From NCBI GenBank assembly GCA_951406725.2, contig OX597839.1, positions 23,312,001-23,376,000 on the forward strand: a stretch of DNA of 64,000 nucleotides, written 5' to 3'. The notes under the pieces were generated by a model, which worked only from the letters and a program-made list of their open reading frames with translations, had not been told where the DNA came from and searched no databases. The position numbers and the translations under genes were made by a program. This DNA comes from Octopus vulgaris (lineage: Eukaryota). Positions 7,838 through 52,621 of this stretch are shown here, piece after piece. Position 1 is the stretch's first letter. Every line of letters starts with the position of its first letter.

Positions 7838-10613
7838 GACCAGTCAGGCAGTACTGGCATCAACTAAGCTCGAATGGTACTTTTTACATGCCACCGACAC
7901 AGGTGCCAGTCAGGCAGTACTGGCATCAACCATGCTTGAATGGTGCTTTTTACATGCCACCAGCACAGGTGCCAATCAGGTGGTACTTTCATCGGTCACG
8001 ACAACGACTTCACTTGCCTCAACAGGTCTTCTCAAGCGTAGTTGATTGCCCAATGATTGAACGGTACTCATAAATGGGCCAGTTATGCTGCACTAGCATA
8101 GGCCATGGTTACGGTCTCAGCTTGCCGGGTCTTCTCAAGCACAGCATATCTCCAAAGGTCTCGGTTACTTGTCATTGCCTTGGTGAGGCCCAACATTTGA
8201 AAGTCATGCTTCACCACCTCATCCCAGGTCTTCCTGGGTCTACCCCTTCCACACGTTCCTTCTACTACTAGGGTGTGACACTTTTTCACACAACTGTATT
8301 CATCCATTTTCGCTACATGACCATACCAGCGAAGTCGTCTCTCTTGCACACCACATCTCATGCTTCTTATGTCCAACTTTTCTCTCAGGGTACTTACACA
8401 CTGTTGAGTATACACACTGACATTACACATCCATCGGATCATACTGGCTTCATTCCTTGCAAGCTTACACATGTCCTCAGCAGTCACGGCCCATGTTTTA
8501 CTGCTATGTAGCATGGCTGTTCGTACACATGCGTCATACAGTCTACCTTTTACTCTGAGCGTGAGGCCTTTTGTCACCAGTAGAGGTAGGAGCTCTCTGA
8601 ACTTTGTCCAGGCTATTCTTATTCTAGCAGCTACACTCTCAGAGCACCCACCCACCACTACTGACTTGGTCACCTAGGTAACGGAAGCTATCAACTACTT
8701 CTAGTTTTTCTCCCTGGAATGTGGTGGAAGCTGTTCCTTGCACATTTTCAGTGTTTATTGCTCCTGAACATCTGCCACATACAAAAACTATCTTCCTAGT
8801 TAGCCTTCCTTTGATATTGCTGCACTTCTTATGTGTCCATAGCTTACAGAGGGTACATCTTATGGAGTTTCCACCTATGCCTTTTCTACAGATCGAGCAG
8901 GGCCATCTACCTGAAGGGATTTATGGTTTGTCTGCCTTCCTACTTATTAAAACTTTGGTTTTTGCTAGATTGACTCTAAGGCCCCTCGATTCTAGACCTT
9001 GCTTCCACACCTGAAACTTCTCTTCTAGTTCAGATAGTGACTCAGTTATTAGAGCAAGGTCATCAGCATAGGGAATCTCCCAGGGGCATCCTGTCTTGAA
9101 TTCCTCTGTTATTGCCTGGAGAACTATGATGAATGAATAAGAGGAAACTGAGAACTGAACCTTGGTGGACCCCTACCTCTACCCAGAATTCTTCACTGTA
9201 CTCATTGCCAACCCTCACCTCACTGACAGCATCCGTGCACATGGCTAGTACAGCTCTCACTAACCACTCATATATCCCTAGTTTCAGCATTGACCACCAG
9301 ATAAGGTACAGAGGTTTATCTTTGGCTAGGTATTTCTCCTGCAGCTGTCTTACCAGAAATTTAGCATCAGTGGTCCTTTTCCCTGGTACAAACCCAAACT
9401 GCATCTCGTCTAGACTGACTCTCTTCCTAATTAGTTGGGCTATGGCCCTCTCCATGACTTTCATTACCTGATCCAACAACTTGATACCTCTGTAATTATT
9501 CGCATCTAATGCATCACCTTTACCTTTGTAGCAGTTGACTATGGTGCTGCTATACAAGACATTGGGTACGACTCCTTCATGTATCACCTGATTGACTATA
9601 CAGGTGACTAGACTATATCTGATGCCAACAGATATTTTAAGCATCTCTGCAGTGATTCCTGATGGGCCAGGGGATTTCCTTGTCTTCATACCCTTAATTG
9701 CTTTATCTACCAAGGTACTGTTAATTCGGATAGCAGGTCTCTCTGTTGGGTCAACATGCAGCAGACTCTCTTTCTCCAATTCATTCTCTTCATTTGGCAA
9801 CCTTTCATAGAGGCATCTCCAAATCTCTCTCCTTGCAGCCTCATTAAATGCAAGCGAACTATCATCCACGTGGACACATTTCTCTCCTATAACATCATGA
9901 TACTCTCTCACATACTGTCTTGCAACATGAAAGTCTTTGGTCCTCACGACACAGAACATGGCAAATTTTTTCGTATCTGCTTCCCTTTTGACTAAGTAAA
10001 CCTGTCTCCTAGTTTCCCTTCTGGCAATCTGATACAGTTCCCTGCCACCACCAGTCTTCCAGTCCTTCCATATCTATTTCTTTTCCCTAATGGCCCTATT
10101 AAATACATTGTCCGACCACTTGGGTCGAGAGGGGACTTTGGACCATCCACGGATCTGGTCAGTAGCCCTCAACTGGTTGTCCCATAGAAACCTCCAGTTG
10201 TCTTCCACATCATGTCATGCTATATTCCACTTCTATTTCGTCAAAAGCTTCAAGCAACATGTCTCTAAATCTCTGTCCCTCTGCAGGATCCTGAAGCTTT
10301 CAGACCCTTCTTCTCCATGCTGGTCGTCTTCTGGGTATCCATTTAGCCCTGATCCTGAGGTCGCTAACTACTAACCTATGTTGTGGAGTGCATTCTTCCC
10401 TTGGGAAAATTTTGGCATTCATAAGTGGCCATCTTTCCCATTTCCTGGGGAGGATGTAATCAATTTGACTAGTGTGTCCACCAGGTCAGTAGGTGAATAG
10501 GTGGCTGGCAGGTTTCCTGAAGTTAGTATTACAAATCATAAGATCATTGCACCGCAGAACTCCAGCAGCCTGGTACCCTCCTCATTGCAAGAACCAAAAC
10601 CATAGCCTCCATG
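7838..10613 (-). mobile_element. Degraded RTE-clade LINE: endonuclease remnant, RT, C-terminus and tandem-repeat 3' UTR
   Basis: Motifs KSPGPSG, YKGKGDALDANNYRGIKLL, QFGFVPG, GVHQGSVLS, YADD (9059-9070), FRYLG, RLRWYGHV and GRGRPRKTW. Several frameshifts and stops. Confidence 0.95.
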
Positions 10614-14506: not shown

Positions 14507-14583
<77 letters not shown>

Positions 14584-14586
<3 letters not shown>

Positions 14587-14762
14587 AGAATTAACAAAAA
14601 AGCAAAAGACGAAGACAGGTGGTGTAGACAACAAACTGATGTATTAGTTTAACACTCAGGAAGTGAAAAAGTCTTTAACGTTTTGAGCCTATGCTCATCC
14701 ACAGAAAGGAACACGGAAAGAACCAAAGAGAGAAAATAAAGAATGTGTAGTGGCTAGCAATC

Positions 14763-14764
<2 letters not shown>
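14584..14764 (-). mobile_element. (TA)n-embedded short element with degenerate hammerhead (14673-14708)
   Basis: Minus strand: cttt-CTGTGGA-T-GAGC-atag-GCTC-AAAAC-GT-T-aaag; homologous to 39028-39185. Confidence 0.65.
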
Positions 14765-18010: not shown

Positions 18011-18079
18011 ACAGCCATGGATGCCATTCAAATATTCTGGTTTATCGTCCCTCTGTACCAGGACTAACCAGGTGAGGTG

Positions 18080-18567
18080 ATTCCTGAACGCCTTACTTCC
18101 CTGGGCATGGACACATTGAAACTCCAACGTCTGGCAGCTGACTTGGCAGACACCCATAAAATTATCAACCATCGCACAAACAATAACTCTGAGCACCTCT
18201 TCAAACTCCACCCATCTAACACCCGTGGACATATTTACAAAGTAAGAAAACAGCACAGCTCCCATGACTTCAGGAAACATTTTTTCACGCTGAGAGTTGC
18301 TGAAGCGTGGAACAAACTGCCGGCATCGGTTGTTAGTTGTCGGAGCACTGCATCCTTCAAAACTTCCATGCTTCCTGAGATTCGCCAACACTACACCTGA
18401 TTTTCTCCCCTCCATACACACACAAGCATGTATCTGACTCATACATTGTTCGCTTTCCAGACATTTCTACATTACTGCATGTGCTTTATATACACTTTCT
18501 GACAAGTTGTGGTGCACCTGAGCACTGTATACAATAATTTCATTATTATTATTATTATTATTATTAT
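18080..18567 (+). mobile_element. CR1-type LINE 3' end with (ATT)n tail
   Basis: NTRGHIYK..RKHFFTLRVAEAWNKLPASVV..S..SFK is the typical CR1-group ORF2 C-terminus. Confidence 0.88.
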
Positions 18568-31145: not shown

Positions 31146-31606
<461 letters not shown>

Positions 31607-31620
31607 ATATATATATATAT

Positions 31621-31837
31621 AAAGTTAATCCAAACAAGAAAACACAGAAAAAAAAAGAGAAAAAAACACAGCAACGCGAGGACGTGGAACAATTAAAGTA
31701 TTATTTGACGCTCAGGAAAGAAGGGAAGGAGGGTTTAACGTTTCGAGCGGAGCTCTTCGTCGGAAACAAGGAGAAGGAAAGATCCCAAGAAGGGAAGACA
31801 GAGGAAAAAATATTTTTGCTGGTGGTGCTCAAGAGAT

Positions 31838-31840
<3 letters not shown>
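31621..31840 (-). mobile_element. (TA)n-embedded short element with hammerhead-like fold (31733-31767)
   Basis: Minus strand: gttt-CCGACGA-A-GAGC-tcc-GCTC-GAAAC-GT-T-aaac; its 3' part recurs at 52498-52590. Confidence 0.7.
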
Positions 31841-31889
<49 letters not shown>

Positions 31890-37928: not shown

Positions 37929-38222
37929 AAAGTGGCTGAGTTCCTTTCAAGCATTGGGCCTTACGGAGGCAAAGTGGCTGAGTTCCTTTCAAGCATTGGT
38001 CCTTACGGAGGCAAAGTGGCTGAGTTCCTTTTGAGTATTGGGCCTTACGGAGGCAAAGTGGCTGAGTTCCTTTTGAGTATTGGGCCTTACGGAGGCAAAG
38101 AGGCTGGGTTCCTTTCAAGCATTGGGCCTTATGGAGGCAAAGTGGCTGGGTTCCTTTCAAGCATTGGGCCTTACGGAGGCAAAGTGGCTGAGTTCCTTTT
38201 GAGCGTTGGGCCTCACGGAGGC
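37929..38222 (+). repeat. 42-bp minisatellite x7 at the 5' junction of an RTE 3' fragment
   Basis: Unit aaagtggctgagttcctttcaagcattgggccttacggaggc. Confidence 0.93.
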
Positions 38223-39027: not shown

Positions 39028-39185
39028 TTGAAATTTATAGAAAAACAAAAGATGAAGACAGGTGTATGAACAAGAAGCAAGTGTATTAGTTTGATGCTTG
39101 GGAAAATGAAAACATCTTTTATGTTTTGAGCCTATGCTCTTCATCAGAAAGGAATAAGAGAAAATAAACAAAGAGAAATACACAT
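39028..39185 (-). mobile_element. Microsatellite-embedded short element with hammerhead fold (39116-39151)
   Basis: Minus strand: cttt-CTGATGA-A-GAGC-atag-GCTC-AAAAC-AT-A-aaag. Confidence 0.68.
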
Positions 39186-47477: not shown

Positions 47478-48091
47478 ATCTTTGTTTTGATTTCATCTTC
47501 CTTGGCTCCAAAATAAATCGAGGTGGTGACTGCACTCCAGAAATAAGACGGCGGATAGTACTAGGCAGAGAGGCTATGATCAGCATGAGTAGGGTCTGGA
47601 AGAGTAGAGACATCAGTCTCACTACCAAATGCAGATTGGTGAATGCAATTGTCTTCCCAGTAGCAACATATGGATGCGAGACCTAGACACTAAAGAAAGC
47701 TGACCAGAAGAGAATTAATGCATTCGAGCTTTGGTGTTGGAGAAGACTTTTACAGATTCCATGGACAGCGAGGCTCACCATTGGAGAAGTTCTTAAGCAG
47801 ATCAGGCCGAAAATGTCGCTAGAAGCTAGGATCACCAAGCATAGATTGGCATATCTTGGTCATATTATGCGGGGAAAATCCCTGGAGAAGGACATCATGC
47901 TCGGAATGGTCAGTGGCAAGAGAGGAAGAGGCCGACCAAGAACTCGCTGGCTTGACACCATCAAGAGTGATACCGGAATGGACATAGCCAATCTGAAAGA
48001 AGCAGCCCAGGATAGAACTGACTGGAGGACACTAATCCAACGAGTGACCGAGAGTCGACTTCGACTGAGCGGATAGATAGATAGATAGAGA
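47478..48091 (+). mobile_element. 5'-truncated BovB-like RTE with (GATA)n tail and 12-bp TSD
   Basis: DFIFLGSKI..EIRRRI..FPVATYGCET*T..INAFELWCWRRLL.IPWTAR..GRPRTRWLD; TSD gttatggttatc at 47466 and 48092. Confidence 0.92.
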
Positions 48092-52232: not shown

Positions 52233-52586
52233 TATATATATATGCCTATAGGTGCAGGTGTGGCTATGTGGTAAGAAACTTGCTTCCCAACCACATGGTT
52301 CTGGGTTCAGTCCCACTGTGTGGCACTCTGGGCAAGTGCCTTCTACTATAGCTTTGGGCTGACTAAAGTCTTGTGAGTGGATTTGGTAGATGAAAACTAA
52401 AAAAAGCACGTCATATGTGTGTGTGTACATGCATGTGTGTGTGTATATATGTATACATATATATATATGTATGCATCGTATATATATATATAGATATACC
52501 TTCCTTCCTGAGCGTCCAATAATACTATATTTGTTCCACGTCCTCGCGTTGTTGTGTTTTCTCTTTGTGTTTTCATGTTTGGATTA

Positions 52587-52621
<35 letters not shown>

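What the first reader, a model, noticed from the sequence alone, without database searches (positions are those of the whole stretch)
31621..31840. Microsatellite-embedded short elements carrying a minimal hammerhead ribozyme (3 copies, covarying stem I)
Seen: three ~160-220-bp non-coding inserts in TA/CA tracts share a minus-strand fold. 31733-31767 reads gttt CCGACGA A GAGC tcc GCTC GAAAC GT T aaac; 39116-39151 reads cttt CTGATGA A GAGC atag GCTC AAAAC AT A aaag; 14673-14708 reads cttt CTGTGGA T GAGC atag GCTC AAAAC GT T aaag. The consensus CUGAnGA-stem II-GAAAC-GUH is a type I hammerhead with a loopless palindromic stem III. Stem I covaries (gttt/aaac vs cttt/aaag) and the stem II loop varies while GAGC/GCTC is kept. 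Known: such minimal hammerheads, thought to cleave as dimers, occur in Penelope-like element pseudo-LTRs and retrozymes. Inference: a non-autonomous ribozyme-bearing retroelement family that favours (TA)n. Each copy here has at least one core mutation, so none need be active.
Basis: partly seen in the sequence, partly recalled or inferred. Interest (0 to 1): 0.8.

Follow-up and report, generated by a model that had tools for sequence, protein, structure and literature searches.

The report
Penelope retroelement tails with minimal hammerheads
The three motifs are real minimal hammerhead-ribozyme motifs, most likely on the broken-off tail ends of abundant Penelope-like jumping genes, an arrangement described in 2014; the one twist is that one family mostly carries a non-standard core base.

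Summary
The three motifs are at the stated coordinates and exceed chance (3 hits versus 0.05 per shuffle). [quoted passage not shown] Public contigs show a very abundant family. The same core lies just 3' of Neptune-type endonuclease ORFs in 2 of 80 metagenome loci with long flanks, and Neptune is reported to prefer (TA)n. No ORF was linked to this family itself.

Two corrections. The in-window stem I covariation is one event between two subfamilies; real covariation appears only across families. U4C in the 31.7-kb copy is not decay: it is the majority state in laid contigs (about three quarters of depth) and marks a subfamily in another animal.

Best reading: 5'-truncated Neptune-type PLE 3' ends (0.7). 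A dedicated non-autonomous family is the rival (0.22). The tandem-array retrozyme test was not met. Cleavage is untested. This scan reached the same reading earlier on other genomes. New member of a known kind; interest 0.3.

The parts
31621..31841 (-). Element copy e31: about 73 nt of 5' leader, min-HHR, about 110 nt pyrimidine-rich 3' part ending at (TA)n; probable 3' pLTR of a PLE
31733..31767 (-). Minimal type I hammerhead: stem I 4 bp (31764-31767 with 31733-31736), core CCGACGA (U4C), extra A before G10.1, stem II GAGC/GCUC with 3-nt loop, GAAA, palindromic ACGU, H17=U; predicted cut between 31737 and 31736
   Evidence: family state
31692..31719 (-). Second conserved block 3' of the hammerhead (UUCCUGAGYG...AAU AC), shared by all four copies across both subfamilies; role unknown
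52497..52592 (+). Copy e52: 96-bp 5'-truncated member of the e31 subfamily, same 3' terminus, begins about 12 nt after the predicted cleavage site, no hammerhead, TA on both sides
14583..14763 (-). Copy e14, second subfamily, between two TA tracts
14673..14708 (-). min-HHR with A6U and G12A (G12A at a CpG); probably dead
39030..39185 (-). Copy e39, second subfamily, decayed (72% identical to e14), 3' end near a (CA)n tract; ends approximate
39116..39151 (-). min-HHR with G12A and G16.2A (both at CpG; the latter breaks the stem III palindrome), H17=A; probably dead

Best explanation
The elements are the 3' ends (pseudo-LTR part) of two families of Neptune-type Penelope-like retrotransposons in an octopod-like genome. 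An autonomous PLE's GIY-YIG endonuclease nicks (TA)n, its reverse transcriptase starts at the RNA's fixed 3' end and usually stops after 100-220 nt, leaving short copies with one shared 3' end and variable 5' ends. The hammerhead sits about 90-110 nt from the 3' end, so copies that are long enough carry it. It has no stable stem III and would cut only as a dimer of two pLTRs in a tandem transcript; these solitary copies, 7-17 kb apart, are passengers. Shown: motif, shared 3' end, TA flanks, high abundance, same core behind Neptune-type ORFs in other animals. Inferred: an ORF-bearing parent of these families, the TA-nicking mechanism, dimer cleavage.
For: e31 and e52 share the 3' terminus to the base but have different 5' ends. 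3 of 4 copies have (TA)5+ within 4 nt of both ends, whereas 2.6% of window positions lie that close to such a tract. In DNA-run contigs 8,584 records were laid; summed depth falls from about 3.0M at the hammerhead's 5' edge to 1.5M, 0.9M, 0.27M and 0.09M toward the 5' end. The motif has the features of the published min-HHR: extra nucleotide before 10.1, G10.1-C11.1, palindromic 15.2-16.2; the closest published row is the Acropora digitifera motif listed as Neptune. A core pattern found 120 metagenome loci. In L037 the core is about 680 nt 3' of an RT plus endonuclease ORF with a CxxCxxC linker; in L007 it is about 90 nt 3' of a broken endonuclease end. Stem I, not part of the search pattern, covaries across 16 sequences: 19 double-change cells versus 8.9 shuffled, 0/500. 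Craig 2021 attributes (TA)n bias to Neptune and says Naiads lack canonical HHRs.
Against: No PLE ORF remnant in the window (tblastn best E 5.3; profile best domain 6.7 bits), and no link from this family to an ORF anywhere. Similarity to the metagenome loci is confined to the 28-43-nt core region, so they show what the motif is, not family membership. Only 2 of 80 long-flank loci show a PLE ORF. The depth taper could also come from subfamily divergence, other families sharing only the core, or edge effects; a sharp step near 31805-31810 with mixed loose ends (agreement 0.48-0.59) could mark defined 5' ends. The two raw-read runs gave only 0-6 reads over the body of the element, which does not corroborate high copy number.
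Confidence: 0.7

Rival explanations
1. Dedicated non-autonomous, SINE-like PLE derivatives of about 180-220 nt with their own defined 5' ends, mobilised in trans by a Neptune enzyme.
For: No ORF nearby. e31 and e14 extend a similar 55-73 nt above the hammerhead. Depth drops in a step near 31805-31810. Non-autonomous PLE derivatives exist.
Against: e52 is truncated at a different point. The decline in depth is mostly gradual. In L007 the ORF ends about 90 nt above the core, so 55-73 nt leaders are what truncation just short of the ORF would leave.
Confidence: 0.22
2. Monomer offspring of a non-LTR retrozyme: tandem arrays elsewhere make circular RNAs by hammerhead cleavage, and these are copied into TA tracts.
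For: Unit size of about 200 nt is in the retrozyme range. Four reads in one run join a truncated copy head-to-tail to another copy across a short (AT)n.
Against: No tandem array in the window. Retrozymes carry canonical type I hammerheads in tandem repeats, while minimal ones are assigned to PLEs. A fixed 3' end abutting TA is not expected of circular templates. The 4-read joint lacks the hammerhead.
Confidence: 0.06
3. Chance resemblance of a purine-rich repeat to a hammerhead.
For: No Rfam match; folds no better than shuffles; 2 of 120 metagenome hits and 4 prokaryotic hits to a related pattern look like chance matches.
Against: 3 hits versus 0.05 per shuffle; core kept between subfamilies that are otherwise about 58% alike; identical core in distant animals with covarying stem I.
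Confidence: 0.02

Closest known systems
Minimal hammerheads (min-HHR) in pLTRs of metazoan PLEs (Cervera and De la Pena 2014, PMC4209133; main text parts 1-2 and supplement parts 1-2 read)
   Same: Type I topology, no loop 3, palindromic 15.2-16.2, extra nucleotide before 10.1, G10.1-C11.1, U-rich 5' flank, mostly solitary dispersed copies. The A. digitifera Neptune row (CUGACGAA GGGC UAAC GCUC GAAA CGUC) differs from e31 by few letters.
   Different: No cephalopod among the 56 rows of their Fig. S3, and none of those rows begins CCGA; the e31 family is mostly U4C. No flanking ORF shown here.
Neptune clade of endonuclease-positive PLEs (Craig et al. 2021, PMC8557442; passages and two supplement rows read)
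   Same: HHR near the 3' end, (TA)n bias, 5'-truncated copies; same core found behind CxxCxxC-linker ORFs in L037 and L007.
   Different: Clade assignment rests on the ORF, which is not available for this family. The octopus PLEs listed in the rows I saw are Naiads, which target (TA)n but lack canonical HHRs.
Non-LTR retrozymes (Cervera and De la Pena 2020, PMC7229834, passages; Li, Clavereau and Pollet 2026 preprint 10.64898/2026.07.22.740005, introduction and most results)
   Same: Non-coding, 150-450 nt, type I hammerhead, PLE-related.
   Different: Those are tandem arrays, typically with canonical hammerheads and circular RNAs; here solitary copies with a minimal motif and a fixed 3' end at TA.
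Dimer-cleaving hammerhead variants of PLEs (Lunse, Weinberg and Breaker, RNA Biol; not held, known from the review PMC6765202 and recall)
   Same: Diminished palindromic stem III, dimer cleavage.
   Different: Could not check whether octopus examples or U4C families are in their set.

Membership tests
PLE min-HHR | CUGANGA core box | tested here: inconclusive
   Met in e39; e31 has U4C (C in about 76% and 73% of laid depth in two runs); e14 has A6U. U4C is a known natural, weaker variant.
PLE min-HHR | GAAA box and NUH cleavage triplet | tested here: met
   e31: GAAA, GUU; family G12A 10.5% and 1.5%, H17 U or C. e14 and e39 both carry G12A; their family consensus was not tested.
PLE min-HHR | Stem II with G10.1-C11.1 and one extra nucleotide before it | tested here: met
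   All 3 copies; no other letter at 5% or more at the eight stem II positions.
PLE min-HHR | Loopless palindromic stem III | tested here: met
   ACGU in e31 and e14; broken by a CpG-type change in e39.
PLE min-HHR | Covarying stem I | tested here: met
   Across hand-picked family representatives: 35 of 45 Watson-Crick cells versus 17.2 shuffled; covariation score 0.317 versus 0.109, 0/500. Within the window only one event.
PLE min-HHR | Self-cleavage as a dimer | not testable with these tools
   Energy model puts the double-hammerhead far above alternative dimers (-5.7 versus -22.5 kcal/mol for e31) but has no tertiary terms.
Neptune PLE | RT + Cys linker + C-terminal GIY-YIG ORF upstream of the HHR | tested here: inconclusive
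   Absent from the window; present upstream of the same core in L037 and L007; no genome held to look further.
Neptune PLE | (TA)n insertion bias, 5' truncation | tested here: met
   3 of 4 copies TA-bracketed; e52 truncated with the same 3' end.
Neptune PLE | Partial tandems or inverted 5' copy | tested here: inconclusive
   None in the window; one 4-read head-to-tail joint; inverted remnants upstream in 28 of 120 metagenome loci.
Non-LTR retrozyme | Tandem arrays with a hammerhead in each unit | tested here: not met
   Four solitary copies in 64 kb; rest of the genome not examined.
Non-LTR retrozyme | Circular RNA expression | not testable with these tools
   Only contigs of a run guessed to be RNA were available; no joint closing a full unit was listed.

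The most novel reading that the evidence does not exclude
Whole PLE subfamilies have amplified to very high copy number with a U4C core (CCGACGA), independently in this octopod-like genome and in a coral-type family (38 of 104 distinct metagenome contexts are CCGA; all 30 with one downstream diagnostic are CCGA), while the rest of the core and stem II stay fixed. If U4C dimers barely cut, then the hammerhead fold is kept for something other than fast cleavage, such as a binding or stop signal for the PLE reverse transcriptase. Descriptor searches that require CUGA would have missed these families. U4C/U4 sister subfamilies would be a natural pair for testing what PLE hammerheads do.
Probability: 0.2. 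Interest if true: 0.6.

Novelty: new member of a known kind. Interest (0 to 1): 0.3.

Why it matters
The kind is published: thousands of solitary min-HHRs from truncated PLEs per animal genome. This adds a probable cephalopod example, none being in the 2014 alignment I read. The function of PLE hammerheads is still open (Craig 2021), and a high-copy subfamily whose majority core is U4C gives a cheap natural test of whether cleavage is needed for retrotransposition.

Tried and rejected
Rfam: no hammerhead family among the 150 listed of 485 matches for the window nor among 2 matches for the element alone. No whole genome is held, so no genome-wide census. Viral contigs: 0 matches to two patterns. 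Prokaryotic genomes: 4 matches to a 21-nt pattern, taken as chance and not opened. Sequencing runs: no RNA holder listed; run X10 is only guessed to be RNA and is no evidence of expression. Raw-read runs X22 and X23 gave 0-6 reads over the element body, and their pile at 31631-31668 is A-rich mis-mapping; cause unknown (host filter or different material), so no copy number from them. Summed contig depth is not a copy number. No pile of ends at the predicted cleavage site was listed, but contigs cannot show one; e52 starts about 12 nt past that site, so a cleavage-product origin is not supported. Naiad origin considered and set aside: Naiads lack canonical HHRs and none of four short motifs from these elements occurs in the one supplement file searched. 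Dimer folding energies were uninformative. Literature searches listed no paper on octopus PLE hammerheads; the O. vulgaris repeat paper has 0 occurrences of 'ribozyme'. The Lunse paper was not held, the 2026 preprint's supplements are closed, and one supplement file of the 2014 paper was not searchable; any could already list these families or U4C.

Full report
Observation. A descriptor that fixes only the hammerhead boxes (at most two mismatches), a 4-bp stem II and a stem I of four or more pairs finds these three and nothing else in 128 kb of both strands; 20 shuffles of non-overlapping dinucleotides in 200-nt blocks gave one hit in all. Rfam does not recognise the motif and the folds are no more stable than shuffles, which is expected for a hammerhead lacking stem III and is not evidence against it.

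The elements. BLAST and a profile of the copies find four members, not three. The copy at 52497-52592 lies on the other strand, is 89.5% identical to the 31k copy over 95 positions, ends at the same base next to (TA)n and starts about 12 nt after the predicted cleavage site, so it has no ribozyme. The 14k and 39k copies are 72% identical to each other and 58-62% to the other two, so there are two subfamilies. The stem I swap (G-C versus C-G) therefore counts once. Besides the hammerhead, a block 15-45 nt further 3' is kept in all four. Three of four copies have (TA)5+ within 4 nt of both ends, against 2.6% of window positions near such a tract; the 39k copy is near (CA)n instead. The host looks like an octopod: of 59 relatives of a LINE fragment at 8083-8670, the two named closest are Octopus bimaculoides proteins at 75% and 87% identity over 42% and 31% of the query.

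The family in public runs. I laid four runs on 31621-31841 at 80% likeness. Contigs of a DNA run gave 8,584 records with summed depth in the millions over the element body, while individual long pieces had depths of 21-55, so the family is very abundant; the tool warns that this is no copy number. Depth is 3.0-3.5M over the hammerhead and falls toward the 5' end (1.8M, 1.5M, 0.9M, 0.27M, 0.09M). At 31762 (position 4 of the core) the canonical U accounts for 578,949 of 2,466,246 depth units (23.5%) in X1 and 13,630 of 49,693 (27%) in X10; the rest is mainly C as in the window, subject to bias toward the reference. G12A is 10.5% and 1.5%; position 17 is C in 25% and 3%; two stem I positions vary at 6-15%. 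No other letter reaches 5% at C3, G5, A6, G8, A9, A13-U16.1 or in stem II. So the 31k hammerhead looks like its family's majority form, not a decayed one. The two raw-read runs had 0-6 reads over the body and do not corroborate the abundance; the reason is unknown.

The same core elsewhere. A pattern fixing the core and stem II, allowing U or C at 4 and A or U at 6, matched 120 metagenome loci, 104 distinct contexts. Most belong to one family nearly identical to the Acropora digitifera motif that Cervera and De la Pena list under a Neptune PLE. In that family 36 of 78 distinct contexts are CCGA, and all 30 with one downstream diagnostic are CCGA, so U4C marks a subfamily. Only 2 of 120 have U6, both GC-rich and chance-like. 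Stem I was not in the pattern and is an independent test: over 13 hand-picked representatives plus the window copies, double changes number 19 against 8.9 in shuffles and the covariation score is 0.317 against 0.109 (0/500), above all slid controls (similar). The fourth pair is weak (5 of 16 paired). I scanned 61 of 113 ORFs of 130 aa or more from the 80 long-flank loci, leaving out three bacterial-looking loci and duplicates. L037 has an RT and, in a second frame, a CxxCxxC linker and GIY-YIG-like end on the hammerhead strand, about 680 nt upstream, and its relatives are 600-780-aa RT proteins of fishes and frogs, two with a GIY-YIG Pfam hit; the local Pfam scan itself did not call GIY-YIG. 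L007 has a broken endonuclease end about 90 nt upstream. Similarity between these loci and the window's elements is limited to the core region. The window holds no PLE ORF remnant.

How it most likely works. A Neptune-type enzyme nicks (TA)n, copies the RNA from its fixed 3' end and usually falls off early; the hammerhead rides along when the copy exceeds about 150 nt. In a full tandem element two pLTR hammerheads can pair their ACGU palindromes and cut; published monomers do not cut and dimers cut weakly. The copies here are solitary and two have further core damage, so they are probably inert. The link to an ORF, the nicking and the cleavage are inferred, not shown.

Comparison with what is known. 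The 2014 paper defines the motif, its extra nucleotide, G10.1-C11.1 and palindrome, and reports thousands of single motifs per genome as probable truncated PLEs. Craig et al. 2021 give the (TA)n bias of Neptune and Naiad, the lack of canonical HHRs in Naiads, and note that HHR function is unclear. Retrozymes are defined by tandem arrays, not met here. O. vulgaris has 31 recently active Penelope-like families, so autonomous partners are plausible in such a genome. U4C is a known natural viroid variant that lowers activity in vitro yet suffices in vivo; none of the 56 rows in the 2014 alignment has it. I could not read the Lunse paper, which may cover it.

Earlier scan notes on other genomes reached the same reading; they are not independent support. 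One suggested that short copies begin at the stem I edge. In the coral-type loci 54 of 77 distinct copies lose similarity to the majority upstream sequence within 8 nt of C3; in the window's family a depth step at 31764/31765 is compatible but ambiguous, and none of the four window copies begins there.

Verdict. Real, correctly recognised motif; known kind; probable new cephalopod members; one modest twist in U4C. Interest 0.3.

Noticed in passing
L001-L119 (coral-type family, metagenome loci): 54 of 77 distinct copies lose similarity to the majority upstream sequence within 8 nt of C3, i.e. they seem to start at the 5' edge of stem I rather than at the cleavage site; 28 of 120 loci have an inverted hammerhead-like remnant within 200 nt upstream.
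   Followed up: partly
L001-L119: U4C (CCGA) core marks a subfamily: 36 of 78 distinct contexts, co-segregating with a downstream diagnostic.
   Followed up: partly
window 31692-31719, 14631-14662, 39075-39105, 52503-52530: A second conserved block 3' of the hammerhead is kept between subfamilies that are otherwise about 58% alike; possibly an enzyme recognition or 3'-end signal.
   Followed up: no
window 31623-31705 (run X23): Four reads join a truncated copy to the start of another across a short (AT)n, suggesting insertion into the TA flank of an earlier copy.
   Followed up: no
window 8083-10073 (-), 47687-48076 (+), 18068-18400 (+): Decayed LINE fragments; the first has a weak RT match and Octopus relatives.
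   Followed up: partly
window 31300-31604: A GC-richer repeat with a tRNA-like 5' part directly abuts the TA tract at the element's 3' end; looks like a SINE (by eye, not tested); part of this stretch is held by many runs.
   Followed up: no
window 37960-38215: Tandem minisatellite of about 42 nt giving a repeated reading frame.
   Followed up: no
L037:453-1172: A hAT-like transposase fragment lies directly 3' of the Neptune-type element.
   Followed up: no
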